A stretch of 64,000 nucleotides of DNA. It comes from an uncultured Lachnospiraceae bacterium (lineage in GTDB: Bacteria > Bacillota > Clostridia > Lachnospirales > Lachnospiraceae). The stretch lies in contig CAMXPV010000018.1 of assembly GCA_947245585.1 (NCBI GenBank), forward strand, positions 8,682 through 72,681, read 5' to 3'. The notes beneath the pieces are model-generated. The model saw only the letters and a program-made list of their open reading frames with translations, was not told where the DNA came from and did no database searches. Positions 1 to 51,531 of this stretch are shown here, piece after piece. Made by a program: the position numbers and the translations under genes. How positions within the stretch are numbered: position 1 is the first letter of the stretch; each line of letters starts with the position of its first letter.

Positions 1-3000
1 TACTCGTTCGCCGTCCATTTTGCGTAGAAGGTCTTATCGTCCGCGTCGGTTGCCGTGAGCTCAATTACCTTCGTGTCCTGCGCAAAATCCTCGTCCGTAT
101 ACCAGCCTCCAAAGGTATATCCTGTCCTTTCTATCTGCGCCGCCGTTGGCAGAATCAGTCCCTTGCTGTATGTATATTTCTGGAAAGCAGTCTCATTCGT
201 TATGGTTCCGCCATTTTTCTCATAAGTTACAGAATAGCTGTCCGGCGTCCACCCCGCATAAAGCGTCCTGTTTGCCGTCACTGCGGTATTGAAATTGTAA
301 GGTGTCGTGCAGGCGGAATTGGTATACCAGCCCTTAATGGTATAATGTTCCCTGACCGGCGCGCCGTATACAGGTTCCACAATCTTACCGCCGCTCACCA
401 CAAGCCGGGTATCGGTATGAGACGGTTCCTCATCCTCCGCCTGCATATCGCTTTCAAATATGCCTTCGCCCGCATTCAGCGTTACGCTGCAAATTCCAGG
501 CGCAGCCTTCGTGGCCTGTTTGCCCACGCCGGAGGTGGCGGTAAACGTATATTGTCCCGCCTCATTGACGCCAAAGGTATTCCCCCGCACCGTCATGGCA
601 TAGCTGTCCCCCTGCTTTTGGCAGACTGTTCTGCCTGCGGAAGGGCCAAAGGTAACCTGCACGGAAAAGATGGCGTTAGGGCCGTCCGCCTGCGCCGCTC
701 CCAACGTGATCGTGGGCGTGATCCGGTCCAGACGCAGGGCGCTGCTGTATCCCTGCACCGTATTTCCCACACTGTCCACCGCTTTGTAATACAGATAGTT
801 GACTCCATCAGTCAGACTGGAACCTGACACTGTTCCATTGACACTTGTGCCCGTTTTCCCAAGGGAGGTCAGGCCGCCTGTGGGGTACGCGCCCTTTGTG
901 GTCACCCACTTGTACTGTAGGCTGGCAATCCCGCTGCCGCCCACATCCGTACCGTTTATGGTGACTGTCGGAGGCGATGCCTGCCATGGAGTGGGAATCG
1001 CGCTCACCGTCACCTTCGGATTCGTGCGGTCGATCTTTTCCACGGTAACCGTCTTCGTCACGTTTTTCGATCCGTTTGACAAGGTAAACACATAGTTCCC
1101 GTTGGCAGCAGCGGTATAGCTGTTTCCCGTCACGCTCTGGATTGTCCCGTCCGGCTTTTTCACGTTCAGGGTCAGCGTGCCGCTTCCCTGCTTCTCCAAT
1201 AAAATCGTGCGGCTTCTCGCCCACTGGCTGTTATCCGTGTCGGCAGTCAGTGTAAGCTTCTGCTCCTGCTCCTGTTGCTGCTGTGGCGTCACGGTAAAGG
1301 AAGTCTTTTCATAGGCCGCCTCGCCCGTGCTCCTGTTGATCGCCATGGCGTGGAGATAATAGGTCCCCGCCGTCAGCGCCGGGTTTGTGGCCGTGTAGCT
1401 TAAGCCGCCCGCTTTCAGCCATCCCGCCGCAGGCATGCCCGCATCCTGCGTAAAGCAGTACTGGAGCAGATCCGCGTTCTGCGCGCTGATCTGCGCCTTC
1501 GCCATGCCGTCCGTCACGCCGTTGTTGGTCAGGGTGATTTTGGGCGCGTTCGCACCCGTCGTCGTAATCGTCGCAGTGCCGGAGGTATTCGTGTTTGCCG
1601 TCCCGGAAGTATCGCACATATCCTTGATATAAGATGCATTGGTGATGCCCTTAAGCTGGATATCGCCGCCCTTAAACTCCGTGGTCACCTTGCCCGTAAA
1701 ATACAGCACGTTGGTATCCCCGCCGCCGCTGTAGCTTAAGTCGTTTGTCACGTTGGTCTTAATCTTCACACTGCCCAGGGTGGAATTTTTCACATCCACA
1801 ATCTCGTCAAAGACAAGCGCGATGGTGATGTTGTCACCGACCGCGTAGGCAGTCTGCGCCATGGGCGCGATGCCGAGAAGCTGCGGTTCCGTCTCGTCCT
1901 TAATCTTCGTCCAGTCCTTATACGAATTCATATACCATATGTCTTCCTTTGCCCCTGTCGCCGCAAACCATATATTTGCTTCGTCATACACACCGAAGAC
2001 CAGATAATCACCCTCTATGGCACCGCTTCTCACCGCTGTATTAAAACCATATACATTGCTTCTTTCACCTGCCCCTGGGACAGTCACTGCCGCCTCCAGG
2101 TCATCTTCCATTTCCCATCTGGCCGTATATTTTGCCGATCCGACATTGCTGTCCTCAAGGGCAACCGGGCCATCATATTCATTTCCACTGTTAAAACTGT
2201 TCGGCGCATGGTCTGCAATCCAGATATGCTCATACCCGTCGTCCTCTTCCCTGGCCGTAAATCGCAGCCGATAATAATACCCGTCCGCCGTCGCCTTGAC
2301 ATAGGCATTCACCTTGTCGTCCCACGCCGCAATCGTTCTCTGCACATTAAAGTTCTTATAACAGCCAACATTATCAAGATGACTTGTGTTGTAGCCTCTG
2401 TTATTGGAATAAAACACCTGATGGTTTTTCGTTTTGCTTCTGTCTACAACATACTTGTTATCATTGCTTGTGGAATAGCTTCTCTCCTTCTCCTGATAGA
2501 CATCCCTGCTCACCGCATAGGAGCTGTTCTTCGCCATCGTCCTTGTGGCCGTTCCCGCCAAAATCGTCGCGCCGCCCATAGGTCGATAAATTTCTAGCGA
2601 ATATGTCCTGTCGGCATTGGCATAAGCCGTGGCCGTTTCCCCGCCATAGGCGCTTGTCACCGCATGTTCCGTCACGGTGACGGTCTGGCTGCCGCTGCCG
2701 TTAAAGGTCAGCATTCCCGCCTTGTGGGTAAAGTGGGTTCCGCCCACGGCAGAGCCGTTCACCGTGCGGTAAAACACCATCTGCTCCCCCACGCCGTCCG
2801 CAAGCGTCACGGTAAAGGTATTGTCCCCGTTATTTTTCACGGAAAACTGTCCCAGATTGTCGGTCTTGCCAAAGGGAATGGCATTGCTGTAGACCACGTT
2901 TCCTCCCGCCGTCTTCACATAGGCGCGCCCGTAGTAAGTGACCGTCTTGGTCAATCCCGTGGCCGCAACAGATATCTTCTGATTCGCCGCCGTCACCGGG

Positions 3001-6120: not shown

Positions 6121-6131
6121 GGTTTACATAA
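6121..6131. other. XerD-arm-like motif GGTTTACATAA
   Basis: Reverse complement TTATGTAAACC is a 10/11 match to the Firmicutes dif XerD arm TTATGTAAACT. Confidence 0.6.
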
Positions 6132-10942: not shown

Positions 10943-11341
10943 CTAATACCGTTCCAAAAATTCTGCCATTGTAACAATCTCGGGCATATCCACATCCAAA
11001 ACCAGAAAATCTTTGTCGCCTGTCACAAATGTCTCATTGCTCTCCATAATTGCCGTTGCCAATATGGGAGAATCCTTTGCATCCCGCATTTGCGGAAACT
11101 CGCTCAAATCCAGTACTTTCGGCGTATAAACCAACTCAAACGGAAGTTCCAGAAAAAACTGATCCAGAAACTTCCGCTTTGCCGGAAATTTCCTGTCAGT
11201 CACAAGCCGTAATTCTTCAATCACATAGTCGCACACCACAATCTGATGACTATCCGCCAATCGCTTAGCCAATTTCCTTGTCTGCGTAGATGGAAAGAAA
11301 ATCATTGAAATAAAGATATTGGTATCAAGCATTACCCGCAA
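10943..11341 (-). CDS. PIN-domain toxin (VapC-like)
   Basis: N-terminal VMLDTNIFIS and C-terminal D..DSPIL...FVTGDKDFL acidic motifs. Confidence 0.9.
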   Translation of the reverse strand: MRVMLDTNIFISMIFFPSTQTRKLAKRLADSHQIVVCDYVIEELRLVTDRKFPAKRKFLDQFFLELPFELVYTPKVLDLSEFPQMRDAKDSPILATAIMESNETFVTGDKDFLVLDVDMPEIVTMAEFLERY

Positions 11342-11342
11342 A

Positions 11343-11600
11343 TTAATACCCCCTTACTTCCCTTCGGATTTCCTTCATATAATCCTGCATTTCTTCCTCT
11401 GTTGCAAACCCTGCCCTTTGCGCTTCACCAGTGAATGCTTCCTCAGCCCGCTTAAATGCCAACATTGCAGAATTTTCAAAATAAAATCTGCCGTCTTCCT
11501 CTAAAATCACAACCTTATCACCGGCTTTCAATTTCAGCGCATTTCTTACCGATACAGGAATGGTAATCTGTCCTTTGCTAGAAAGTTTTGCTACTTCCAT
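11343..11600 (-). CDS. AbrB/MazE/SpoVT-family antitoxin
   Basis: AKLSSKGQITIPVSVRNALKLKAGDKV is a swapped-hairpin signature; the gene is adjacent to the PIN gene. Confidence 0.92.
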   Translation of the reverse strand: MEVAKLSSKGQITIPVSVRNALKLKAGDKVVILEEDGRFYFENSAMLAFKRAEEAFTGEAQRAGFATEEEMQDYMKEIRREVRGY

Positions 11601-11656
11601 TCTTCATCATCCTCTCAAATACACCACTTGGTCTTCTTTACTTTCTTTACCTTTTT

Positions 11657-11685
11657 ATTATACGCAACAGAACATATAATAGCAA
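11657..11685 (-). promoter_or_regulatory. sigma-A-type promoter of the AbrB-PIN pair
   Basis: TTGCTA-17 bp-TATAAT on the minus strand. Confidence 0.6.
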
Positions 11686-11725
11686 TCTTTAATAGCAATA
11701 ATTTTTTGTAGAGAAAAAGCCGGAA

Positions 11726-12421
11726 TCAGCCTGTCTCCCCCAACAGATACCCCACGCCTTTCTTCGTTTGAATCAAATCGGAAAGGCCGATTTCCCCAAG
11801 CCGCTTACGCAAACGGTTCATATTCACCGTGAGGGTATTGTCATCCACAAAGCACTCGTCATCCCAGAGCCGCTTCATCAACAGATCGCGGCTGACCACG
11901 CCGCCTGCCGCTTCAAAGAGGGTCTGTAAAATACGGAACTCGTTTTTGGTCAGTTCAATCCGCCAAGATTCTTCTGTCTTATTCCGGCAGGAAAGCGACA
12001 TATCCGTCATATTTAACAGGACACCCTTGTATTCCAGTATCGTCCCCGGTGTCGTAAATGCGTAAGCCCTTCTTAACAACGCCTGTATCTTTGCCTGCAA
12101 AATCTCTAAATCAAAGGGCTTTACCACAAAATCGTCGCCGCCCATATTGACCGCCATCACCACATTCATGTTGTCTGAGGCCGAAGAGATAAAAATAATC
12201 GGCACCTGGGATATCTTGCGGATCTCGCCGCACCAGTAGTACCCGTTGTAAAAAGGCAGGCCAATATCCATCAACACAAGTTGGGGCTCATAAGCCGCAA
12301 ACTGTCCCGTCACATCCGCAAAATCTTTGACAGTCTCCACCTCATAGCCCCATTTCCCCAGATATTTTGCAATTTGCTCCGCAATGACTGCATCGTCTTC
12401 CACGATAAGTATTTTATACAT
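11726..12421 (-). CDS. OmpR-family response regulator (BceR/GraR-like)
   Basis: Receiver LIVEDD...LMDIGLP; winged helix ending TKKGVGY. Confidence 0.95.
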   Translation of the reverse strand: MYKILIVEDDAVIAEQIAKYLGKWGYEVETVKDFADVTGQFAAYEPQLVLMDIGLPFYNGYYWCGEIRKISQVPIIFISSASDNMNVVMAVNMGGDDFVVKPFDLEILQAKIQALLRRAYAFTTPGTILEYKGVLLNMTDMSLSCRNKTEESWRIELTKNEFRILQTLFEAAGGVVSRDLLMKRLWDDECFVDDNTLTVNMNRLRKRLGEIGLSDLIQTKKGVGYLLGETG

Positions 12422-12442
12422 AACAAAGACTCCCCGTCATTT

Positions 12443-12886
12443 CTATTGATTAAACGCCGTGATATTGGCCTCGTTCAACGTAAAGTCATAGTAATTCAAA
12501 TCCTCCCGCTTCGTCCAACCGATCTGCTTCCAGAAGGCATTGCCGATATCGTTCTTTGTAAAGGCGATCAGCGATACCTTATTGATCTGCTCTGCCTTCA
12601 GCGCCTCCATGCAGAATACCACCATGGCTTTTCCGATGCCTCTCATACGGTACTCCTCCGCCACACACACATGGTAAAGACATCCCCGCCTGCCGTCGTG
12701 TCCGCAGAGAATCGCCCCAACGATCCTGCCATCCTCCACAGCCACCACGCTGGTGTCCGGGTTTCTCATCAGAAAGCGGGCTACCCCCTCTCTGGAATCG
12801 TCCAGACTTCTAATGGCAAATCCTTTTATTGACATCCAAAGCGCTTTCACGCCATCATAATCTTCTATCGCCATTTTGCGTACCAT
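12443..12886 (-). CDS. GNAT N-acetyltransferase (YpeA-like)
   Basis: GHDGRRGCLYHVCVAEEYRMRGIG acetyl-CoA motif. Confidence 0.9.
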   Translation of the reverse strand: MVRKMAIEDYDGVKALWMSIKGFAIRSLDDSREGVARFLMRNPDTSVVAVEDGRIVGAILCGHDGRRGCLYHVCVAEEYRMRGIGKAMVVFCMEALKAEQINKVSLIAFTKNDIGNAFWKQIGWTKREDLNYYDFTLNEANITAFNQ

Positions 12887-12978
12887 CTGTATTCTCCGTT
12901 TCTCATTTTAATCAAATTATGTAAACTATTCTATTTGTTGTGTCTGTGTTATGTAAACTCATTTAGTAATTATGTAAA

Positions 12979-13563
12979 CTACTCTCCCGCTAGCTCCACC
13001 GCCGTATACTCATGCCCCACATAGGGCAGGAACTTCTCCAAAACATCTTTCATCCTAAGCTTAAGACTCGATGTGTTCACGCAGGGATGGCACCCCACAA
13101 ATTCCTCCTGCAAAAGCTCTCTGTCAATCAAAAGCCGCACTCTGTGGTCCCTATCATTCATCAGCCCCATCACGCTCACAGAACCCGGCGTAATGTCCAG
13201 AAATTCCTCCATGTACTCCTCCTCCGCAAAGGAGAGTCTCGCTACGCCAAGCTGAGAGGAAAGCTCCTTTGTCTTAAACTTTTTTAAGCCCGGCATCATA
13301 AGAAGATAGAAATCCGTCTTTTGCCTGTTGCACAAAAAGAGATTTTTACAAATATGAATGCCAAGCGCCTCATCCACTCCATGGCAGTCGTCCACGGTAG
13401 CTGCCGCCTCATGATCTACACGGAGATACGGTATCTCTAATTTATCTAGCAGCTCATATACATCCATTTCTTTTAAAAGTCTACCCTGTGGTGAGGGTTT
13501 TGTGTCAACCGGCGTTAGCGCCATGTCCCGTTCTTCCATCTCCGTAATCCCTTTCTCCCGCAA
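12979..13563 (-). CDS. Prolyl-tRNA editing protein (ProX/PrdX, YbaK family)
   Basis: CKNLFLCNRQK..FYLL, LSFA and PGSVSVMGL motifs; the true start is probably 13539. Confidence 0.9.
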   Translation of the reverse strand: MREKGITEMEERDMALTPVDTKPSPQGRLLKEMDVYELLDKLEIPYLRVDHEAAATVDDCHGVDEALGIHICKNLFLCNRQKTDFYLLMMPGLKKFKTKELSSQLGVARLSFAEEEYMEEFLDITPGSVSVMGLMNDRDHRVRLLIDRELLQEEFVGCHPCVNTSSLKLRMKDVLEKFLPYVGHEYTAVELAGE

Positions 13564-13622
13564 TCAATCGTTTGTGTTATGTCAATCTATTGTTTTAGCC
13601 GTCTTCCGCATTATGTAAACTA

Positions 13623-14111
13623 TCAATACCCGAACGTCCCTTCCAAAGACTCGTCCTCGTCAATCCAACTCTGCACCGGAATCACTCGGTATTCATCCTC
13701 GGTGTCGCGGACATACACTGTCTCAATCCCCGCGTTGATGATCTGCCTCTTACACATAGAACAGCTGCAGGAATTTTTCACGTACTCCCCGGTATCCGCC
13801 TCCACTCCGGTCAGATACATGGCGCTGCCGATCATCTTATCCCGCGACGCGCTGATGATGGCGTTGGTTTCCGCATGAACGCTGCGGCACAGCTCATACC
13901 GCTCTCCCCTTGGAATAGCCATTTTCTGCCTAATACACTCTCCCACGTCGGTACAGTTTTTCCGCCCTCTTGGTGCGCCCACATAACCTGTGGAAATGAC
14001 CTCATCGTTTTTTACAATCACCGCACCATAATGTCTGCGCAGACAGGTGGAACGCTGGGACACCATCTTCGCCAAATCCAGATAATAGTTTACCTTGTCT
14101 CTTCTCTCCAT
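13623..14111 (-). CDS. Cytidine/deoxycytidylate deaminase family protein
   Basis: Zinc motifs HAETNAI and CSCSMCKR. Confidence 0.9.
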   Translation of the reverse strand: MERRDKVNYYLDLAKMVSQRSTCLRRHYGAVIVKNDEVISTGYVGAPRGRKNCTDVGECIRQKMAIPRGERYELCRSVHAETNAIISASRDKMIGSAMYLTGVEADTGEYVKNSCSCSMCKRQIINAGIETVYVRDTEDEYRVIPVQSWIDEDESLEGTFGY

Positions 14112-14128
14112 TTCAACCTCCTGTTTAG

Positions 14129-14533
14129 TTATGTAAACTCCTTTCTCATAATAATCTCCAACGACATCCCCGGCAGCAGCAAAGAACCACAGTCCACATA
14201 TCCATTCTTTCGATAAAAAAACTGTGCCTGCTCATTTGACAAAGTGGATGTCAACACCATTTCATAACCGCTGTCCGCCATTTCCTTTTCCCCAAAAGCG
14301 ACTAGCTGTGTGCCATTGCCCCGTCCCCTGTATGACTCCAGGAAAAACAACATATTCATAAACGGTATCTCATCCCAAAACAAATTATACCGCAGCCATC
14401 CGATAAAGCAGTCATTTTGGTACATGACCAAAACTCTTTTTGAATGGACTGCCTGTTCCAGTTCCTGTTTACTGATATATTTATCGCACAGTTGTACGAT
14501 TTCCATATCCCTTTCGTCGGCATAGCGGATCAT
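14129..14533 (-). CDS. GNAT N-acetyltransferase
   Basis: YRGRGNG and AQFFYRKNGY motifs; SD AAGGAGG before ATG 14533. Confidence 0.88.
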   Translation of the reverse strand: MIRYADERDMEIVQLCDKYISKQELEQAVHSKRVLVMYQNDCFIGWLRYNLFWDEIPFMNMLFFLESYRGRGNGTQLVAFGEKEMADSGYEMVLTSTLSNEQAQFFYRKNGYVDCGSLLLPGMSLEIIMRKEFT

Positions 14534-14546
14534 AGCAGCACCTCCT

Positions 14547-15197
14547 TTACCCAAAAACCGCCCATATAAAACTAACCGTGGAAAGCAGGTTGCAAATACA
14601 GTGAAACAAAATGCTTATGGTAAAATTTTTCTTTCTGTATGCCACATACATTACCGGTGTAAATACCAAAATACGAAACACATTGTTAAACGGCAGCCAG
14701 AAATGATAAAGCGAAAACAAAACCGCGATCAGTATCGGCGTAAGCCACCCCTGCTTTTCATAATGCGATGTCAGATAACCCCGAAAAAACAGCTCCTCCG
14801 TAACTGGCCCGACGATTACATTAAAAACACCGTAATAGATACAGGTCACAACGAGCGTCATCTTGGAAAATGATTTTATGTATTCATAATTTGTCCAGTC
14901 AAATCCGGTTGGCAAATTTTGAAGTACACTGCTCCTTATCCCCGCAAATATTTGATTTTCAACAGGTGCGACAAAAGCGCTTTTCAGAGAATATGCGCCA
15001 TACTCCTTTTTACTCGCCGATAAAATGAATCCCAACTCTATCGGCACTAAAATGAAAGTCGCCAGAATACAAAACAGCAGAAGATGCGGTATCTTGCAAA
15101 AATGCCCCAAGATCAGATAGCTGCCACTCAATACTGCTGTGGGTATAAAAATCCGAAGCAAAAGTCCTTTTGTATCAATTTGAATCATTGAAGCCAA
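14547..15197 (-). CDS. CPBP (CAAX/Abi) family intramembrane metalloprotease
   Basis: EELFFRG, F.LYH and H..CN motifs in a hydrophobic protein. Confidence 0.9.
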   Translation of the reverse strand: MASMIQIDTKGLLLRIFIPTAVLSGSYLILGHFCKIPHLLLFCILATFILVPIELGFILSASKKEYGAYSLKSAFVAPVENQIFAGIRSSVLQNLPTGFDWTNYEYIKSFSKMTLVVTCIYYGVFNVIVGPVTEELFFRGYLTSHYEKQGWLTPILIAVLFSLYHFWLPFNNVFRILVFTPVMYVAYRKKNFTISILFHCICNLLSTVSFIWAVFG

Positions 15198-15244
15198 ATC
15201 CTTCCCTTCTCTGTTCCTGTCACACAGATTCCTCTCCGCCCGTA

Positions 15245-15838
15245 TCAGCCCCTCCAGACCACTACATCTTCAAGCTCTTTTCGTGGTCTCGCTTTCGGAA
15301 ATTCATCCGGATAACCAAAAGCAATCGCTGCTATTAGCTGCCCTTCGCTATTTAACCATTCACTGATTTCTGCATATGCAAAATAGATATCACAAATCCA
15401 GAGACTTCCTATTCCCTTTTCCGCAGCGGTAAGAAGCATGTTTTGTATTGCCGCGCTTATGGACTGGATATTACAGATCTCGTAAATATGTTCTTCCGGC
15501 GTCATTTCTGATAAAATATCTTTTCCCAATGTATTCACAACAAATACAGCAGCCGACGCCTCCTCCATGATATCAACCGTATATTTTGCCGCCGGAATAT
15601 GCTGCCTGCTTTGCGGAAGCAATGCGTTTCCCTTTTCTTCCCTCGCAATCCCCCTGCGGAAAACTTTCAGCATTTCTTCCTTCTCTGCTCCCTGCACCAC
15701 AATGAATTTCCACGGCTGTCTGTTTTTGGAAGAAGGCGCTTTTATCCCGCTTTCCAGAATCTCTGTCAAATCTTCCCTTGATATGGGTTTATTCAAAAAC
15801 TTTCTTATACTCCGTCTGTCATAAATTGCAGAAATCAT
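15245..15838 (-). CDS. Nitroreductase family protein
   Basis: RRSIRKF and APSSKNRQPW motifs; AIQNMLLTA..GIGSLW. Confidence 0.93.
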   Translation of the reverse strand: MISAIYDRRSIRKFLNKPISREDLTEILESGIKAPSSKNRQPWKFIVVQGAEKEEMLKVFRRGIAREEKGNALLPQSRQHIPAAKYTVDIMEEASAAVFVVNTLGKDILSEMTPEEHIYEICNIQSISAAIQNMLLTAAEKGIGSLWICDIYFAYAEISEWLNSEGQLIAAIAFGYPDEFPKARPRKELEDVVVWRG

Positions 15839-15882
15839 TTTGTTTCCTCACTCCACTCCTGATTAACAAATTCATCTTCCCG

Positions 15883-16338
15883 TCACGCTCTATGTACATA
15901 CATCCGTGACAATTTCTCTTCCCCGTCCCCCTGCGCCATACAGAAGAACTCCCAGTTATAACGCTCATAAAACGAATCATGGTCTGTCAACAGATACAAC
16001 GTATCGATTCCCCTCTTTTTCATGTCCGCACAGACATACTCAAGCAGCGCGCCCGCAATACCATTTTCGCGTTTATCCTCCTCCGTATAGACGGCGCAGA
16101 CATTTGGCGCAAGGTCTTTCCTATCATGAAAATCATTCTCAATCACGCCAAGGCCGCCGATAATCCTGTCGCCTTCCACCGCTGCATACCACTGTGGAAC
16201 CGGCTCTTTTCCCGTCAGGCTTTCCTCCATGCTTTCCAGATAAGCAGTCAGCGGAACGCCCCATTTTTCGTGAAACCACTGTGCCGCCTCTTCTTTGATT
16301 TCCGGCCTGTCCGCCACCCGTATGATTTTGTAATCCAT
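15883..16338 (-). CDS. GNAT N-acetyltransferase
   Basis: AVYTEEDKRENGIAGALL and LYLLTDHDSFYERY motifs. Confidence 0.88.
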   Translation of the reverse strand: MDYKIIRVADRPEIKEEAAQWFHEKWGVPLTAYLESMEESLTGKEPVPQWYAAVEGDRIIGGLGVIENDFHDRKDLAPNVCAVYTEEDKRENGIAGALLEYVCADMKKRGIDTLYLLTDHDSFYERYNWEFFCMAQGDGEEKLSRMYVHRA

Positions 16339-16359
16339 ATGCGTCTCCTGACAACTTTT

Positions 16360-17592
16360 CTAAATATATGCAATAGGAAGAGCCACCAGATTCTCCCGTA
16401 AATATGTCTTTTTATCAATCAGGCAGAGAATCACTCCCATTCCTCTTTGCTTCTCCTTCACTTTATCCAATACAGGATTTGCCGCTCCCATATTTGCTTT
16501 CGGATTTCCAGTCATTTTAATTTCTACAGGATATAACACTCCGTTTTCTTCGATCACAAGATCAATCTCATTTTCCCCGTCCGCCTTTTTATCTTTTCCT
16601 CTGTAATAATAAGTACTAAACTTGTAGTCTTTTCCTTCATTGGTATAAGATTTTAATATTTCCGAAACTACAAAAGTCTCAAACATACTGCCCGCAACAG
16701 CAGAGTTTTTCAACGCATCAGCAGTCAGCCACCTTGTCAGATAACAGGCAAGCCCCGTATCTCTAAAATACAGCTTCGGCGCTTTTATCGCTCTGTTTAA
16801 GGCAGAGGCGCTATAGGGCTGCAGCAAAAATACAATTCCCGTCCGCTCCAAAATAGAAATCCAAGTTTTGACTGTGGGTTCGCTTACCCCTATTTCACCT
16901 GCAATATTGGCATAGTTTAGCATCTCTCCGGTTCTTGCGGCAACAGCGGTAAGAAATTTCGTAAAAGTAATGCTGTCCGCCAAAATCAATTCGTTTATAT
17001 CTCTCTCAAGATACGTTGAAACGTAAGAAGCATAATATTCCTGCCAGTCTCTTTCCACATCATACAATTCCGGATATGCCCCTCTGTGTATGGTATCCCA
17101 TAAATCCGTATAAGGCTTCAGCTCTTTTTCACGTTCTCTCAGATATTCCTCTGTAGGCACAAAGTGCCTGTTAAACTTTATTCCATGAATTTCACGAAGG
17201 GACAGTCCCGCCAACTCCGTGACCGAAACTCTCCCCGCAAGAGATTCGCTCATCCCCTTCATCAGTTCCAGATTTTGTGAACCGGACAGAATGAACAGGC
17301 CTCTCTCATCCGTCTCATCAACAATGCGCTTCACATCTTCAAGAATACCGCTTTCTTTCTGGACTTCATCAATAAACAGGGGACAGGGGTTATTCAAAAA
17401 AAAGAGCCCGGGTTCTTCTTTGGCCTGCAGCCGCGTTAATCTGTCATCAAAATTTGCCCGGTTATAGCCGGAAAATTCATGCTTAACAAGCGTTGATTTA
17501 CCAACCTGTCTGGCTCCTGTGATAAGTATACATTTACTGGTTTCAGCCCGCTGTTTTACGATCTTAGCAACCGCCCGCTCTATATATGCCAC
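16360..17592 (-). CDS. AAA+ ATPase with DUF4143 C-terminal domain
   Basis: GARQVGKST, FIDEVQK, KLYFRDTGL and EIDLVIE...PVEIK motifs. Confidence 0.92.
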   Translation of the reverse strand: MAYIERAVAKIVKQRAETSKCILITGARQVGKSTLVKHEFSGYNRANFDDRLTRLQAKEEPGLFFLNNPCPLFIDEVQKESGILEDVKRIVDETDERGLFILSGSQNLELMKGMSESLAGRVSVTELAGLSLREIHGIKFNRHFVPTEEYLREREKELKPYTDLWDTIHRGAYPELYDVERDWQEYYASYVSTYLERDINELILADSITFTKFLTAVAARTGEMLNYANIAGEIGVSEPTVKTWISILERTGIVFLLQPYSASALNRAIKAPKLYFRDTGLACYLTRWLTADALKNSAVAGSMFETFVVSEILKSYTNEGKDYKFSTYYYRGKDKKADGENEIDLVIEENGVLYPVEIKMTGNPKANMGAANPVLDKVKEKQRGMGVILCLIDKKTYLRENLVALPIAYI

Positions 17593-17604
17593 GCTCCGCC
17601 TCCT

Positions 17605-17657
17605 TCGACTAATCTAAAATCTAATTTTATTTTAGTCGATCCATTCCATCCTGTCAA
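17605..17657 (-). promoter_or_regulatory. sigma-A promoter (TTGACA-17-TAAAAT) overlapped by a 35-bp imperfect palindrome
   Basis: -35 at 17652-17657 and -10 at 17629-17634; palindrome TCGACTAA...TTAGTCGA at 17605-17639. Confidence 0.72.
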
Positions 17658-17684
17658 ATGTATTTCCCCAATCTATCCAGTTTT

Positions 17685-18101
17685 CTACTGCCTTTCAAAA
17701 TATATCGCCTGCGAGCCGTCGTCTTCTATAAACTTTCCATTCTCAGTTCTGATCAAATAGGTTCCGACAGGAGATTTTAAATAGGGAATAATATCCGGGT
17801 CATAGTTACAGATTGTGTTTATGGCAAACACATGAAAATTGTCCGTATTATTGGAATACGCCTCGTCCTCATCCCCCTTGAAAAAATGCCAACCGCTGTC
17901 CGGCTGATTCTCTAGCGGTTCGTCCCGAAACATATATCCGACCTTCCACCCTTCTTTCGTTATCATATCTGAGGCAATACAACCTTCGCCGTTCGGTTCC
18001 TTCCATTCAATCAGCGGTTTTACCTCAATCTCTAAAAATCCGTCTTTGTTTTCCCCACTATTTTCCATATTTTTCTTTTTTAATCTATTCAAAAAACCCA
18101 T
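17685..18101 (-). CDS. DUF2185 / Imm33-like protein
   Basis: VGYMFRDEP...DSGWHFF.GDE...Y motif. Confidence 0.8.
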   Translation of the reverse strand: MGFLNRLKKKNMENSGENKDGFLEIEVKPLIEWKEPNGEGCIASDMITKEGWKVGYMFRDEPLENQPDSGWHFFKGDEDEAYSNNTDNFHVFAINTICNYDPDIIPYLKSPVGTYLIRTENGKFIEDDGSQAIYFERQ

Positions 18102-18137
18102 GCCCTTATTGCCTCCATAAATTCTGTCTGTTTTCGC

Positions 18138-18923
18138 CTACCTCTTACTCAGCTGTGCAATCGCGCCATAGTGTAAAATCGTAAATTCTTCCGGCGCAGT
18201 CTGTGCAAGCAGTTTTTTATGCTCCTCTTCCCATCTGACTATCTCCTCTTCCGAAAGAGAAGCGCCGACTCCGCGGCATGCCTTCATTCTTCCGTTCCAA
18301 CTCTCCCTTGTAAACGGTACTTTTAAAAGAAATTCCTCGTGATACGCAAGATCAAATTTTTCTTTGTAACAGTCAGGTATCGATACCGGCCGAACGGTTT
18401 CCCCGGCGCCGCTCCAGGAAGGATTATACTTTAAGACCAGTTTTTCGCTCTCTCCCGCAATCTGATCTTCAAAGGGAAGCCACGACATATATAAAACCAG
18501 AAGGCTTCCTCCCGGTTTCAACATACGGTAAAGATTCGGCATCAGTTTTTTGTGATTAAAATAGAAAAAGCACTGACAGGCCGTAACCACGTCAAAGGAA
18601 GCATCCGGAAACCCGATCTCCTCCACCGCCGCCACATGATACGCGATATCCATATCCTGAGAAAGCGCCTTTGCCTGTGCAATCTGGTTTTCCGAAATGT
18701 CCGCCGCCGTCCACTTGGCCCCGTACCGATATAGATTTCGTGGCAGAACCCCGGTCCCCGTTCCGATATCCAGAATGGCCTGTCCGGCTGTGCACAAATT
18801 CCGCAAAAGAATTTTCTGATAAAATTCCTGCGGATAAATGTCACGAAACTTCGCATAATCTGTGGATGTCCTCCCCCAGTCAAACGGGGTTCCATTATCT
18901 ATGTTTTCGTTAATTATGTTCAT
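18138..18923 (-). CDS. Class I SAM-dependent methyltransferase
   Basis: ILDIGTGTG motif I; FDVVTACQCF. Confidence 0.92.
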   Translation of the reverse strand: MNIINENIDNGTPFDWGRTSTDYAKFRDIYPQEFYQKILLRNLCTAGQAILDIGTGTGVLPRNLYRYGAKWTAADISENQIAQAKALSQDMDIAYHVAAVEEIGFPDASFDVVTACQCFFYFNHKKLMPNLYRMLKPGGSLLVLYMSWLPFEDQIAGESEKLVLKYNPSWSGAGETVRPVSIPDCYKEKFDLAYHEEFLLKVPFTRESWNGRMKACRGVGASLSEEEIVRWEEEHKKLLAQTAPEEFTILHYGAIAQLSKR

Positions 18924-18983
18924 ACCCTTTCGTGCCTTTCTCTCATGCGCGTTGTCAACACACTCCTATTTTACCACATTTTT

Positions 18984-29762: not shown

Positions 29763-29773
29763 AGTTTACATAA
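29763..29773. other. XerD-arm-like motif AGTTTACATAA
   Basis: 11/11 match; intergenic, upstream of the PP2C gene. Confidence 0.65.
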
Positions 29774-34824: not shown

Positions 34825-34835
34825 GGTTTACATAA
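34825..34835. other. XerD-arm-like motif GGTTTACATAA
   Basis: 10/11 match; intergenic between STAS and spoVAD. Confidence 0.6.
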
Positions 34836-48744: not shown

Positions 48745-51531
48745 TTGGACAACACGCAGCTGAAAACGGAACGGAACGAAAAGAAACTGGAACGGATTGT
48801 ATTGGCGATCCTGAGTCTCTATGCCATCGCCGCCTTTCTCACAGGGCTGCTATCCGATTGGAGCATATTTATTCTGGAAATGATTTTTCTGCCGCCTCTT
48901 GTGGGTTGGTTTGTCCACGGGCGTGAATACTGGGATCACCCCAGACGGGCTTCTTTCATCAGTATTATGTGTTGGACGGAATTCATCATCTACGCCCTGT
49001 TTACCACAAGTTTTTCCTCCCTGCTCATCACTATGGCGGGAGTGATTGTGTTGTTGAGCATCTTTAACAGTAAACAGCTTCTCTATCCGGGATTCATCAT
49101 CCCGATTTTTCTCCTTTTATATCACGGCTTTATTGCAAAAACCATCGGCGTTAGCGGCCCCCGCGGCGCTCTGCGGCTCTTCGTCCAGTTTTTTTCCCTG
49201 TACACGGTTTCCTCTGTCATCTTAATTATCCAGAAAAACCGGCAGGAAGCCAGCGATCTTCTGGTGGACAACATCCGGGAGTTAGAGATCGCCGAGCGCA
49301 GCAAGGACGACTTTTTAGTCAACATTTCCCACGAGATCCGCACGCCCATCAATGCGGTCTGCGGCATGAGCGAGGCTATTTTACAGGAGGATCTTCCCAT
49401 AGACGTGCGCCGCGATGTGGTGGATATTCAAACCGCAGGCAGAAATCTCCTCTCCACGGTAAGCAATATTTTGGACTTCTCGGAACTTGAGACAGGACGG
49501 ATGGAACTGGCAGAGGAAAGCTACAACATCACCTCCACCATCACCGATATCATCAACATGGCATTGACCATGGACAACGGCAGGCATCTGGAGCTGATCG
49601 TGGACTGCGACACCGATCTGCCAAGCAATCTTTTGGGGGACGAGCAGAAATTCCGGCGCATTGTCATGAACCTGCTTGGCAACGCCATCAAATTTACCAG
49701 GGAGGGCGGCGTGATTCTGCGGATCAAAAGCCGCAGGGAGGAGTACGGCATCAACCTGCAAGTCAGCGTGAAGGACTCCGGCATCGGCATCGAGCGCGCC
49801 GACATGGAAAAAATCTTCACCAGTTTCAGCCAGGTCAACTCCAAAAGAAACAGGGAGGAGGGCGGCGTTGGTCTGGGTCTTGCCATCACGCAGGCCCTTG
49901 TCCGCAGCATGGGCGGCTTTTTGACGGTGGAGAGCACGCCCGGTACGGGCAGCGAATTCCGCTTTACCATTCCCCAAAAAGTGTTGGACGAGACGCCCAT
50001 CGTCTCCATCAAAGATAAGAGCCAGCTCTTTGCAGCCTGCTATATCAATCTTGACAAGTACGACTATACCGTAGTGCGTGAGGGCTATGAATCCTGTATG
50101 CAGCACATTGTCAGCCAGTTCGGTTTTCCCTTCCGCATCTGCCGGAATCTGGCGGAACTGAAACGGCGCATGGAGCGCGAGTCCTACACCCACATTTTCA
50201 TCGGTTGGGAGGAGTACAGCGAAGACCGCAGCTTCTTTGACCGACTTTCCAGGGAGAGGACCGTCGTGCTTTTGCTTGATTACGATCAGGAAATGTTGGT
50301 GCAGGGCAATATGCTCCGCATTTATAAGCCCTTCACGGTTTTGTCCATCGCCGCCGTCTTCAACGGGCAGAAAATTTTGAACGGCGAGGACCGGCAAACA
50401 AGTTTACATAATAAATTTATTGCCCCCCAGGCAAGCGTGCTTGTGGTGGACGACAACGCCATGAATTTAAAGGTCATGGCCAGACTGCTTCTGCCCTACC
50501 GGCTAAAGGTAACCATGGCCAGCAGCGGCCAGGAAGCGTTGGAAAAACTGAATGCGCCGGAGTTCGACTGCGTCTTCTTGGATCACATGATGCCGGACAT
50601 GGACGGCGTGGAAACATTACACAAGCTTCGGCAAAAACCCGGCCTGTACTACCAGTCCCTCCCCGTCATCGCCTTCACGGCCAACGCCATCGGCGGCGCC
50701 AGGGAAATGTTTATTGCCGAGGGATTCGACGACTTTATCGCCAAACCCATCGAACTGAGTGTGTTGGAGCGGATTCTCAGGCGCTATATCCCGACCCAGA
50801 TGCAGATTCCCGTGGAAGACGTGGAAGCAGCCCAGGCGGATACGCCGGAAAGCGAGACGGACCGGGGCCGTCTGCATCTGACCAGGGCAGGCGTCAACTT
50901 AGAACAGGCCCTTGCCTACTGCGGGGATGAAGACGGATTCCGGGAAATCATCGCCATCTTTCACGGGGAGGGCAAAAAGCGCCGGGAAAATCTGAACCAC
51001 TATTATCAGGAAGAGGATTGGAAAAATTACGTCATCTGCGTCCACGCCCTGAAGGGCAACGCCAAGGGCATCGGCGCAGGCGACCTCTCGGAGATGGCCA
51101 GAGAACTGGAAATGGCCGGCAAAGAAAACCGGATTGATTACATTCATGAACACCACGAGGAAATGATGGAAAGCCATGACCGGCTGCTTGCGGCACTCGA
51201 CGGCAATGTCTTTGTCTACCCTGACGGGGAGGGGCCTGCCTTAACCGCCGCCTCAGACGAGGCATCGCTGAAAACAGGCGGTGAGAAGGACACGGCCGAC
51301 ATGGAAACAGGCGGCGCAGCGGACGATTCCGCCCTGCAGACACTGCTTTCGCAGATCAGCGAAAAACTGTCCTCCTTTGAGAGCGAAGGGTTGGGCGAAC
51401 TGCTTGACCGACTGTCCGCCTCCCGTCACCAGGACGGTTCTCTCTCCCAGGCGGCGGAAGAAATACGGAAGATGACCTCCGACTTTGATTTTCTTGGTGC
51501 CTCTGAAATTCTGGAAAGGATAGGGAAATAA
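48745..51531 (+). CDS. Membrane hybrid histidine kinase (TM-HisKA-HATPase-REC-HPt)
   Basis: SHEIRTP, NLLGNAIKF, FLDHMMP and HALKG motifs. Confidence 0.93.
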   Translation: MDNTQLKTERNEKKLERIVLAILSLYAIAAFLTGLLSDWSIFILEMIFLPPLVGWFVHGREYWDHPRRASFISIMCWTEFIIYALFTTSFSSLLITMAGVIVLLSIFNSKQLLYPGFIIPIFLLLYHGFIAKTIGVSGPRGALRLFVQFFSLYTVSSVILIIQKNRQEASDLLVDNIRELEIAERSKDDFLVNISHEIRTPINAVCGMSEAILQEDLPIDVRRDVVDIQTAGRNLLSTVSNILDFSELETGRMELAEESYNITSTITDIINMALTMDNGRHLELIVDCDTDLPSNLLGDEQKFRRIVMNLLGNAIKFTREGGVILRIKSRREEYGINLQVSVKDSGIGIERADMEKIFTSFSQVNSKRNREEGGVGLGLAITQALVRSMGGFLTVESTPGTGSEFRFTIPQKVLDETPIVSIKDKSQLFAACYINLDKYDYTVVREGYESCMQHIVSQFGFPFRICRNLAELKRRMERESYTHIFIGWEEYSEDRSFFDRLSRERTVVLLLDYDQEMLVQGNMLRIYKPFTVLSIAAVFNGQKILNGEDRQTSLHNKFIAPQASVLVVDDNAMNLKVMARLLLPYRLKVTMASSGQEALEKLNAPEFDCVFLDHMMPDMDGVETLHKLRQKPGLYYQSLPVIAFTANAIGGAREMFIAEGFDDFIAKPIELSVLERILRRYIPTQMQIPVEDVEAAQADTPESETDRGRLHLTRAGVNLEQALAYCGDEDGFREIIAIFHGEGKKRRENLNHYYQEEDWKNYVICVHALKGNAKGIGAGDLSEMARELEMAGKENRIDYIHEHHEEMMESHDRLLAALDGNVFVYPDGEGPALTAASDEASLKTGGEKDTADMETGGAADDSALQTLLSQISEKLSSFESEGLGELLDRLSASRHQDGSLSQAAEEIRKMTSDFDFLGASEILERIGK

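What the first reader, a model, noticed from the sequence alone, without database searches (positions are those of the whole stretch)
12917..14139. XerD-arm motifs sit exactly on gene 3' ends, like cassette junction sites
Seen: all five copies are in direct orientation. On the coding (minus) strand AGTTTACATAA supplies the GNAT stop (GAG TTT ACA TAA, 14129), overlaps the proX stop (TAG TTTACATAA, 12970-12981) and starts 1 nt after the deaminase stop (13611-13621). Three copies are stacked 32 and 21 bp apart upstream of the next GNAT. Similar short flanks (ACACAAACG, ACACAGAC) follow copies at 13577, 12949 and 29763. Inference: one site per gene boundary, with extra stacked sites, resembles the scars of repeated site-specific insertion and excision seen in integron attC arrays and pdif modules.
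Basis: partly seen in the sequence, partly recalled or inferred. Interest (0 to 1): 0.75.

Follow-up and report, generated by a model that had tools for sequence, protein, structure and literature searches.

The report
Clustered XerD half-sites, not cassette scars
The repeated 11-letter word is the XerD-binding half of the chromosome's dimer-resolution site. It is scattered through this gut Clostridia chromosome as isolated, often stacked, protein-landing sites, and these most likely organise the chromosome rather than mark places where gene cassettes were cut in and out.

Summary
AGTTTACATAA occurs five times in direct orientation at 12917-14139, on or next to the stops of the GNAT, deaminase and YbaK/ProX genes. 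The window holds 11 copies at up to one mismatch, against 0.8 expected. The word is exactly the XerD arm of Firmicutes dif, but no copy has a XerC arm or a central region.

The cassette reading is only partly supported. Gene content around the copies does differ between relatives. However, only 3 of the array's 16 junctions carry the motif, and a sister lineage has the same genes without it. Single-gene indels between 98%-identical strains have motif-free borders. Three copies lie inside genes, and no integrase or attC-like structure is present.

A scan of genomes found stacks of 2-12 direct copies in short intergenic spacers, about half of them in Lachnospiraceae. Spacings peak at about 21 and 33 bp, and neighbouring genes are ordinary housekeeping genes. 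In other phyla, extra half-sites sit beside true dif or xer genes. In 657 kb of related DNA the motif is absent.

Best explanation: non-recombining XerD landing sites, functionally like XDS (sites where XerD unloads SMC at the terminus). They lack the inverted inner half of canonical XDS. Whether the window lies near the terminus could not be tested.

The parts
12917..12927 (-). Exact XerD-arm half-site, proximal copy of the three-copy stack, 30 nt upstream of the GNAT ATG (12886).
   Evidence: The same position holds AGTTAACATAA in L174 and GGTTAACATAA in L003. It reads GGTTTACATAA in the strain of run X11.
12949..12959 (-). Exact half-site, middle copy of the stack (32 bp from the 12917 copy), followed by CACAGACAC.
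   Evidence: It is homologous to the L175 copy AGTTAACATAAcacgagac.
12970..12980 (-). Exact half-site overlapping the TAG stop of YbaK/ProX (21 bp from the 12949 copy).
   Evidence: The same overlap is seen in L174 and L175/L177. In L176 the motif's own TAA is the YbaK stop.
13577..13587 (-). Degenerate copy GATTGACATAA (3 mismatches; the ACATAA part is kept), followed by CACAAACG.
   Evidence: family D2.
13611..13621 (-). Exact half-site starting 1 nt after the deaminase TGA stop.
   Evidence: It lies in a 65-bp segment (13560-13624) that is absent from the L003/L004 lineage. L175/L177 have two copies at this junction.
14129..14139 (-). Exact half-site whose TAA is the stop of GNAT 14129-14554, 17 nt upstream of the deaminase ATG.
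   Evidence: L003 has AGTTTACAATA here. L175 has an exact copy at the same distance from the deaminase ATG, but behind a nitroreductase gene.
13560..13624 (-). 65-bp lineage-specific intergenic segment that carries the 13611 copy and the degenerate 13577 copy.
   Evidence: Alignment A1.
6121..6131 (+). One-mismatch copy GGTTTACATAA, intergenic, upstream of the giant surface-protein gene.
21237..21247 (+). Exact copy inside the methyltransferase gene 21010-21747, antisense to it.
   Evidence: It reads GGTTTACATAA in the L003 lineage.
29763..29773 (+). Exact copy in the divergent intergenic region between a 77-aa ORF and the SpoIIE-type phosphatase gene.
34825..34835 (+). One-mismatch copy GGTTTACATAA in the 511-bp spacer between spoVAD and an anti-sigma-type kinase gene.
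50401..50411 (+). Exact copy inside the hybrid histidine kinase gene 48745-51531, sense strand, in frame as AGT TTA CAT AA.
59847..59857 (+). Exact copy inside the EF-G-like/YacP fusion gene 58316-60931, antisense to it.
12443..14554 (-). The four genes whose boundaries carry the cluster: GNAT (12443-12886), YbaK/ProX-type tRNA-editing protein (12979-13563), dCMP-type deaminase (13623-14111), GNAT (14129-14554).

Best explanation
The 11-mer is the XerD-binding arm of the Firmicutes dif site, present here as isolated half-sites with no partner arm.

The five copies at 12.9-14.1 kb are a cluster of such half-sites that keeps its position across lineages. The cluster is one node in a set of about seven sites or clusters spaced roughly every 8 kb through the window.

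Inferred mechanism: XerD binds each half-site on its own, without XerC and without recombination. Stacked copies at about 21 and 33 bp put several XerD molecules on roughly the same face of the DNA. Such loaded sites would act on DNA-translocating machines, most likely by unloading or blocking Smc-ScpAB as XDS sites do in the B. subtilis terminus region. They might also stop FtsK/SpoIIIE.

The copies sit on gene 3' ends because short intergenic spacers, and the first bases after a stop codon, are the only places in a tightly packed operon-like array where an 11-bp site can be fixed without damaging a protein. The word itself contains TAA in one frame on each strand.

Shown: the identity of the word, the lack of a partner arm, the clustering, the stacking and spacing, the conservation of the cluster with turnover of single copies, and the co-occurrence with dif and xer genes elsewhere.

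Inferred: XerD occupancy, the effect on SMC, and a terminus-proximal position.
For: 1. The word is an 11/11 match to the XerD arm of B. subtilis and S. aureus dif and of many predicted dif sites.

2. There are 11 copies against 0.8 expected. No information lies outside the 11-mer in 381 sites, and there is no XerC arm.

About half of the hits (61 of 120) are labelled Lachnospiraceae and 13 more are Oscillospiraceae and relatives. Stacks hold 2-12 copies in short spacers.

4. Spacings are non-uniform, with peaks at 20-22 and 32-37 bp. The window's 21 and 32 bp fit these peaks.

5. Genes flanking the stacks are diverse housekeeping genes. The only enriched family is Xer-type recombinases (4 of 135), each with the stack 0-90 bp past its 3' end.

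6. Extra half-sites sit beside true dif sites in L041, L090, L091 and L128.

7. In 657 kb around deaminase homologues of related bacteria there are 0 exact copies, so this is not a common word in such DNA.

8. The cluster recurs in four further loci of about three lineages (L174, L175/L177, L176), with the number and exact places of copies changing. That pattern is typical of a binding-site cluster.

9. Degenerate copies keep ACATAA and vary in the outer bases (GGTTTACATAA, AGTTAACATAA, GATTTACATAA). This matches the known stronger conservation of the inner XerD-arm bases.

10. Three copies lie inside genes, in either orientation.

11. Sites are spaced more evenly than random (CV 0.40, p about 0.02).

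12. XerD-only sites that unload SMC are established in B. subtilis and S. aureus.
Against: - The window shows no GC-skew switch, and its distance from the terminus or dif could not be measured. The attempt to walk leftwards failed.
- Only one closed genome was hit. Its stack lies at 45% of the length, which is suggestive only.
- Canonical XDS have a degenerate centre followed by the inverted five innermost bases of the XerD arm. That feature is absent here (5 of 381 sites; 1 partial among the 11 window sites).
- Orientation relative to the replication strand is only weakly biased, 40:20.
- The sister lineage L003 lacks the cluster, so the sites are not indispensable at this locus.
- Homology breakpoints between lineages do fall at or next to copies at two junctions.
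- There is no binding or Hi-C data for any Lachnospiraceae.
Confidence: 0.5

Rival explanations
1. Cassette junctions. The copies are recombination sites of a Xer-type system, and small gene cassettes are inserted and excised between them, as in integron attC arrays or pdif modules.
For: - Copies are direct and abut the 3' ends of three consecutive small genes.
- Gene content between or next to copies differs among lineages. Upstream of the deaminase copy lies either nitroreductase or GNAT. In L174 the 64-aa ORF is flanked by 2+2 copies, while the window lacks the ORF and keeps 3 copies. YbaK is flanked by copies in the window and L175, and is absent in L178-L191.
- The surrounding array of GNATs, toxin-antitoxin pairs and immunity genes looks like cassette cargo, and it varies gene by gene.
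Against: - No XerC arm, no conserved centre, no inverted-repeat structure.
- No integrase gene found among the window's annotated ORFs.
- Thirteen of 16 junctions lack the motif.
- All four indels between 98%-identical strains have motif-free borders, one with a ribosome-binding-site microhomology.
- The L003 lineage has the same genes without copies.
- YbaK-less relatives have no residual site.
- Excision between two copies leaves one copy, not stacks 10-21 nt apart.
- Stacks elsewhere are gene-free arrays next to housekeeping genes.
- No joints at copies in assembled contigs of four metagenomes, which is weak evidence because only contigs were available.
Confidence: 0.12
2. Operator or other binding site of a protein unrelated to XerD (a transcription factor or nucleoid protein), whose recognition word happens to equal the XerD arm.
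For: - Many copies lie just upstream of start codons, 17-30 nt before the ATG at 14129 and 12917.
- The 12949 copy provides a TTTACA -35 box with a TAGAAT -10 box 18 nt downstream.
- A phage-like 29% GC contig (L166) has 27 copies, including inverted pairs beside promoters, which looks like operator usage.
Against: - The 11/11 identity to a very widely conserved XerD arm is unlikely to be chance.
- The same stacks adjoin true dif sites and xer genes in other taxa.
- Stacks occur in sense, antisense, convergent and divergent contexts, and copies occur inside genes.
- No regulator family recurs beside the stacks.
- Only one promoter-like match among the five copies.
Confidence: 0.13
3. RNA-level signal. 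On the mRNA, AGUUUACAUAA marks cistron boundaries. For example it could be a processing site, since UACAU is the recognition pentad of the B. subtilis MazF/EndoA-type endoribonuclease (stated from my own knowledge, not checked here).
For: In the window cluster all copies are on the coding strand, at cistron boundaries.
Against: - Across Lachnospiraceae stacks the motif is more often antisense (41) than sense (26) to the flanking genes, and it also lies between convergent or divergent genes.
- Six of the window's copies are antisense or in promoter regions.
- No Rfam family matched.
- The conserved unit is 10-11 nt, not 5.
Confidence: 0.04
4. Footprints or ends of a small mobile element (MITE-like or IS target sites) that has inserted repeatedly into intergenic spacers.
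For: - The 13611 copy came in with a 65-bp segment that is absent from the sister lineage.
- Copies 12917 and 12970 share 17 of 18 nt with their flanks (family D1).
- Short flank similarities exist (CACARAC).
Against: - No common flanks beyond the 11-mer in 381 sites.
- No terminal inverted repeats and no transposase gene found among the window's annotated ORFs.
- Spacers within stacks are all different.
Confidence: 0.04

Closest known systems
XDS, the XerD-specific binding sites of the B. subtilis and S. aureus terminus region (Karaboja et al. 2021, as described in PMC11840125, PMC11894783, PMC10945525, PMC9226527)
   Same: Both have a bona fide XerD arm without a XerC arm. Both occur as several copies per region and act, or are proposed to act, without recombination. 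More sites work better, and an artificial XDS array blocks SMC.
   Different: Canonical XDS carry a 5-6 bp degenerate centre plus the inverted five innermost bases of the XerD arm, and that feature is absent here. Here the sites form direct-repeat stacks of 2-12 copies with preferred spacings of about 21 and 33 bp. Terminus location and an effect on SMC are untested.
Chromosomal dif (XerC arm, 6-bp centre, XerD arm)
   Same: The XerD arm is identical, TTATGTAAACT.
   Different: There is no XerC arm and no conserved centre. There are many copies instead of one, and they are not at a GC-skew switch.
matS/MatP of E. coli
   Same: Both are a short word repeated at kilobase intervals over a chromosomal domain, and multiple sites are needed to exclude a condensin.
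   Different: matS is a different, palindromic 13-mer bound by a different protein. The sites are single, not stacked, and the system is enterobacterial.
pdif (dif) modules of Acinetobacter plasmids
   Same: Both involve Xer-type arms next to small accessory genes whose content varies.
   Different: pdif sites are complete XerC-centre-XerD sites that alternate in orientation around each module, on plasmids. Here the sites are half-sites, all direct, on a chromosome, and most variable junctions have none.
Integron attC cassette arrays
   Same: Both show co-oriented small promoterless genes with a repeat at the 3' end of some of them, and variable content.
   Different: There is no attC hairpin structure, no GTTRRRY/RYYYAAC cores, and no intI, attI or Pc. 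Only 3 of 16 junctions are marked.
Iteron or centromere-like arrays (for example the 11-bp parC repeats of plasmid R1; stated from my own knowledge)
   Same: Both are short direct repeats at spacings related to the DNA helical repeat, and both bind many copies of one protein.
   Different: The context here is chromosomal, with no partition or replication genes nearby, and the word is the XerD arm.

Membership tests
dif site (XerCD) | 11-bp XerD-binding arm (Firmicutes form TTATGTAAACT) | tested here: met
   Nine exact copies plus two one-mismatch copies. Identity to published dif sequences.
dif site (XerCD) | XerC arm (ending ...ATAA) separated from the XerD arm by a 6-bp central region | tested here: not met
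   None of the 11 window copies has it. There is no information at those positions in 381 sites.
dif site (XerCD) | One copy per replicon, at the GC-skew switch | tested here: not met
   Eleven copies. GC skew is negative along the whole window.
XDS (XerD-specific sites, SMC unloading) | Bona fide XerD arm with no XerC arm, in several copies in one region | tested here: met
XDS (XerD-specific sites, SMC unloading) | [quoted passage not shown] | tested here: not met
   TTATG at offset 5-6 occurs in 5 of 381 sites, no more than at control offsets. In the window there is one partial match (50401) among 11 copies.
XDS (XerD-specific sites, SMC unloading) | Location in the replication terminus region | not testable with these tools
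   No skew switch in the window. The leftward walk failed. The only closed genome hit has a stack at 45% of its length. Extra half-sites sit next to dif in four other taxa.
XDS (XerD-specific sites, SMC unloading) | XerD occupancy in vivo and XerD-dependent loss of SMC | not testable with these tools
   Needs ChIP-seq and Hi-C.
pdif / dif modules | Complete XerC-centre-XerD sites flanking each module in alternating (inverted) orientation | tested here: not met
   Half-sites only, all five direct.
Integron cassette array | attC sites: imperfect inverted repeats with RYYYAAC/GTTRRRY cores able to fold | tested here: not met
   No inverted repeats in or around the spacers. GTTTACA does not fit GTTRRRY, as seen directly in the sequence.
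Integron cassette array | Adjacent integrase gene (intI) with attI and a promoter | tested here: not met
   No tyrosine recombinase domain in any annotated ORF of the window.
Integron cassette array | One recombination site at every cassette boundary, with indels bounded by sites | tested here: not met
   Only 3 of 16 junctions carry the motif. Four indels between 98%-identical strains have motif-free borders.

The most novel reading that the evidence does not exclude
Lachnospiraceae and related Clostridia use a variant of the XerD/XDS system that has not been described in the literature I could search. It would consist of direct-repeat stacks of pure XerD half-sites, 2-12 copies at about 21 and 33 bp spacing, set at roughly regular kilobase intervals. 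These would mark a terminus-side chromosomal domain and unload or block SMC (and perhaps FtsK/SpoIIIE), playing the role that matS/MatP plays in E. coli.

A still bolder reading is not excluded: the same half-sites also serve as crossover points for exchange of the small accessory genes beside them.
Probability: 0.3. Interest if true: 0.7.

Novelty: new variant of a known kind. Interest (0 to 1): 0.5.

Why it matters
If the stacks are XerD landing pads, the second job of XerD, unloading condensin at the terminus, would extend well beyond Bacillus and Staphylococcus into the dominant gut Clostridia. It would do so with a different site architecture: direct, roughly helically phased arrays instead of dif-like pseudo-palindromes. 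That would give a sequence-only way to delimit a 'Ter domain' in thousands of uncultured genomes. It would also supply natural multi-site arrays for testing how many XerD molecules are needed to stop a loop extruder.

For annotation, the result warns that XerD-arm words next to variable accessory genes should not be read as pdif-like or integron-like modules without a partner arm and site-bounded indels.

Tried and rejected
- **Promoter or terminator element.** Only one sigma-70-like match uses a copy (TTTACA-N18-TAGAAT at 12957-12928), and there are no terminators at the copies. Orientation relative to genes is mixed in 120 loci. Rejected.
- **Structured RNA.** No Rfam hit and no tRNA in the window.
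- **Full dif hidden at one copy.** None found in the window.
- **Canonical XDS architecture** (inverted inner 5 bp). Not present.
- **attC-like hairpins.** None.
- **Frequent word across these genomes.** Rejected: 0 exact copies in 657 kb of related DNA and 0 exact copies in the 20-kb orthologous region of the L003 lineage.
- **Evidence of excision in public data.** Only assembled contigs were available. No joint coincides with a copy, and the listed joints come from short contigs of other organisms. This shows presence, not absence.
- **Walking left towards the terminus.** A >3400-aa surface-protein gene at the window's left end blocks 10-kb flanks. The homology search with its N-terminus returned only distant proteins, so this was abandoned.
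- **Primary XDS paper** (PMC7897262). Not held. Its content was taken from papers that cite it.
- **Kono et al. supplement.** It lists no Lachnospiraceae dif.
Full report
**1. Observation**

The sequence shows five exact AGTTTACATAA on the minus strand at 12917, 12949, 12970, 13611 and 14129. They sit among four co-oriented minus-strand genes:
- GNAT, 12443-12886
- YbaK/ProX-type editing protein, 12979-13563
- dCMP-type deaminase, 13623-14111
- GNAT, 14129-14554

The 14129 copy ends in the GNAT's TAA stop. The 12970 copy overlaps the YbaK TAG stop. The 13611 copy starts one base after the deaminase TGA stop. Three copies are stacked 32 and 21 bp apart. A degenerate copy lies at 13577-13587.

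At up to one mismatch the window holds 11 copies against 0.81 expected, and none of 100 shuffles reached that number. The other six copies are on the plus strand at 6121*, 21237, 29763, 34825*, 50401 and 59847 (* = GGTTTACATAA). Three of these are inside genes: the methyltransferase (antisense), a hybrid histidine kinase (sense) and an EF-G-like/YacP fusion (antisense).

Nothing outside the 11-mer is conserved.

**2. What the word is**

TTATGTAAACT is the last 11 bases, the XerD arm, of B. subtilis dif (ACTTCCTAGAATATATATTATGTAAACT) and of S. aureus dif. It also ends many predicted dif sites in several phyla.

No window copy has the other half of dif, an arm ending in ATAA six bases away. The copies are isolated XerD half-sites.

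The window is ordinary chromosome of a spore-forming mouse-gut bacterium:
- Genes include argG, pyrF, shikimate kinase, spoVAD and many signalling genes.
- The DNA is found in mouse-gut metagenomes.
- GC skew is negative throughout, so there is no terminus switch inside the window.
- No tyrosine recombinase was found among the annotated ORFs.
- There is no Rfam hit and no tRNA.

I did not verify the family assignment 'Lachnospiraceae' directly.

**3. Test of the cassette idea with relatives**

Contigs that encode the identical deaminase fall into two groups. One is a window-like lineage (L001, L002, L006). The other is a sister lineage with about 87% DNA identity (L003-L005, L007-L010).

The 11-21 kb region is a co-oriented array of small accessory genes: GNATs, MazE/PIN, Imm33, methyltransferases, DUF3800, DUF4143, nitroreductase and a CAAX protease. 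Its content differs gene by gene between the groups. The sister lineage keeps deaminase-YbaK-GNAT but has none of the five junction copies.

Alignment A1 shows how the two lineages differ at each copy:
- The 13611 copy lies in a 65-bp segment that the sister lineage lacks.
- The 14129 copy corresponds to AGTTTACAATA in the sister lineage.
- The 12917 copy corresponds to GGTTAACATAA.
- The 12949 and 12970 copies occupy the place of a 64-aa ORF.

Within the sister lineage, two strains that are 98% identical (L003, L004) differ by four single-gene indels: HicAB, DUF4143, nitroreductase and MazE/PIN. None of the borders holds the motif, and one border shows a 10-bp ribosome-binding-site microhomology, GTCGAAGGAG. 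In the window itself only 3 of 16 junctions of the array carry the motif at up to two mismatches. Gene turnover in this array therefore does not need the motif.

**4. More distant relatives**

A metagenome scan with the deaminase gave 80 loci.

In 76 of them (657 kb, deaminase 78-93% identical) there is not one exact copy. The word is therefore not common in related DNA.

The four closest loci (L174, L175/L177, L176), which represent about three other lineages, carry copies at the same junctions:
- Before the deaminase ATG. In L175 this copy lies behind a nitroreductase gene instead of the GNAT.
- Between the deaminase and YbaK.
- On the YbaK stop. In L176 the motif's own TAA is the YbaK stop.
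- Before the GNAT.

In L174 the 64-aa ORF is flanked by two copies on each side. In L175 only a remnant of that ORF is left. In the window it is gone and three copies remain. YbaK is missing in L178-L191, and no copy is left at that junction.

Gene content between copies does vary, and two homology breakpoints fall at copies. But the cluster behaves like a binding-site cluster: the cluster is kept while single copies come and go. Empty sites, motif-free lineages and motif-free indels all argue against site-specific cassette exchange.

Degenerate copies keep ACATAA and vary in the outer bases (GGTTTACATAA, AGTTAACATAA, GATTTACATAA). This is the pattern expected for XerD arms, whose inner bases are the most constrained.

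**5. The same thing elsewhere**

- 61 of the 120 loci are labelled Lachnospiraceae, and 13 more are Oscillospiraceae or close relatives.
- Stacks hold 2-12 copies. L025 has 12 copies in 430 bp with different spacers, and L059 has 7.
- There is no information outside the 11-mer.
- Stacks lie in short spacers between genes in every arrangement: antisense 41, sense 26, convergent 12, divergent 9.
- Neighbour spacings are bimodal, at 20-22 and 32-37 bp with a minor peak at 42-45. The distribution is non-uniform (p = 0.004), and the best period is about 11-12.5 bp. The window's 21 and 32 bp fit.
- The flanking genes are diverse housekeeping genes. The one enriched family is Xer-type recombinases (4 of 135, none in Lachnospiraceae), each with the stack 0-90 bp beyond its 3' end. 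L056 has a palindromic AGTTTACATAA-AAATAG-TTATGTAAACT.
- True dif sites with extra half-sites beside them occur in a Zixiibacteriota genome, a Desulfobacterales genome, a Defluviitaleaceae genome (ACTTCCTATAATATATATTATGTAAACT) and an Acididesulfobacter genome.
- The only closed genome hit has its stack at 1.47 of 3.24 Mb.
- Orientation relative to the G-rich strand is biased 40:20 but not strict.

In viral contigs the pattern is rare (43 loci). One phage-like contig of 29% GC uses a similar word like an operator. Not every stack need be the same phenomenon.

**6. Explanation**

The closest known system is XDS. These are XerD-only sites in the terminus region of B. subtilis and S. aureus where XerD unloads Smc-ScpAB without XerC, without catalysis and without dif. 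Several sites are thought to be needed because the extruder moves in large steps.

The sites here share two features with XDS: the bona fide XerD arm without a XerC arm, and multiplicity. They differ in lacking the inverted inner five bases that canonical XDS have and in being arranged as direct, roughly helically phased stacks.

Within the window, sites and clusters are spaced about every 8 kb, more evenly than chance. The coefficient of variation of the gaps is 0.40 (p about 0.02), though this test was chosen after seeing the data.

I therefore propose non-recombining XerD landing sites that act on translocating machines. Their placement on stop codons is a by-product of packing an 11-bp site into very short spacers. 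XerD binding, the effect on SMC and proximity to the terminus are all inferred. The last could not be tested, because a gene of more than 3400 codons blocks flank retrieval at the window's left end and the homology search did not return that protein.

**7. Public reads**

Only assembled contigs were available. A strain about 98% identical (run X11) is colinear across the cluster. It differs by T>C at 12927, 13621 and 14139, which is the same first motif position (A to G) in three of five copies. No joint coincides with a copy. The parallel change remains unexplained. It could reflect a weak constraint on the outermost base, or lineage-specific tuning of the sites.

**8. Verdict**

- Observation: confirmed.
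- Interpretation: partly supported. The XerD-arm identity and the variable gene content hold. The cassette mechanism does not.
- Most likely explanation: an XDS-like array of XerD half-sites.
- Novelty: a new variant of a known kind.
- Interest: moderate.

Noticed in passing
window 10943-21780 (and L001-L010): A co-oriented array of about 17 small accessory genes: PIN/MazE, four GNATs, Imm33, two methyltransferases, DUF3800, DUF4143 ATPase, nitroreductase and a CAAX protease. Its content changes gene by gene between lineages. Strains that are 98% identical differ by four single-gene indels whose borders sit at ribosome-binding sites, one with the 10-bp microhomology GTCGAAGGAG. The array resembles an integron in cargo but has no sites and no integrase.
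   Followed up: partly
window 12927, 13621, 14139 (run X11): A strain about 98% identical carries the same change, A to G at the first motif position (GGTTTACATAA), in three of the five copies. The probability by chance is about 3e-4. The same variant occurs at 6121 and 34825 in the window, and in the methyltransferase copy of the L003 lineage.
   Followed up: partly
window 13623-14111: The deaminase protein is 100% identical between lineages whose DNA is only about 87% identical. This indicates very strong purifying selection on a gene embedded in an otherwise fluid accessory array.
   Followed up: no
window 3-5891 (minus strand, runs off the left end): N-terminal 1963 codons of a surface protein of more than 3400 aa with Flg_new (Listeria-Bacteroides) repeats. 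GC is 56%, against about 47% in neighbouring DNA. No close full-length homologue was returned by the word-based search.
   Followed up: partly
window 6121 ... 59847: The seven sites or clusters are spaced 5.1-15.6 kb apart (CV 0.40). This is more even than random placement (p about 0.02), but the test was post hoc on seven points.
   Followed up: partly
L025 2650-3250: A Lachnospiraceae MAG has 12 half-site copies in about 430 bp of gene-free DNA, with all spacers different. Directly upstream are 3-4 tandem copies of a second unrelated repeat (TATGTAGTTGTTTTCTT).
   Followed up: no
L020, L056, L063, L077: Xer-type tyrosine recombinase genes with a stack of half-sites 0-90 bp past their 3' end, in Bacillales, Oscillospiraceae and other Clostridia. 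L056 has a perfectly palindromic arm-6 bp-arm site plus one extra half-site. This looks like a single-recombinase Xer system linked to its site, as with XerS/difSL.
   Followed up: partly
L166 (IMG/VR contig, 29% GC): A phage-like contig with 27 copies at up to one mismatch in 14.8 kb. Many are inverted pairs around GC-rich spacers, next to promoters of small genes. This looks like operator use of a near-identical word.
   Followed up: partly
window 58316-60931 and 51535-54228: Two unusual domain fusions: EF-G-like GTPase fused to a C-terminal YacP/NYN nuclease domain, and a histidine kinase fused to a receiver domain and a C-terminal DegV domain.
   Followed up: no
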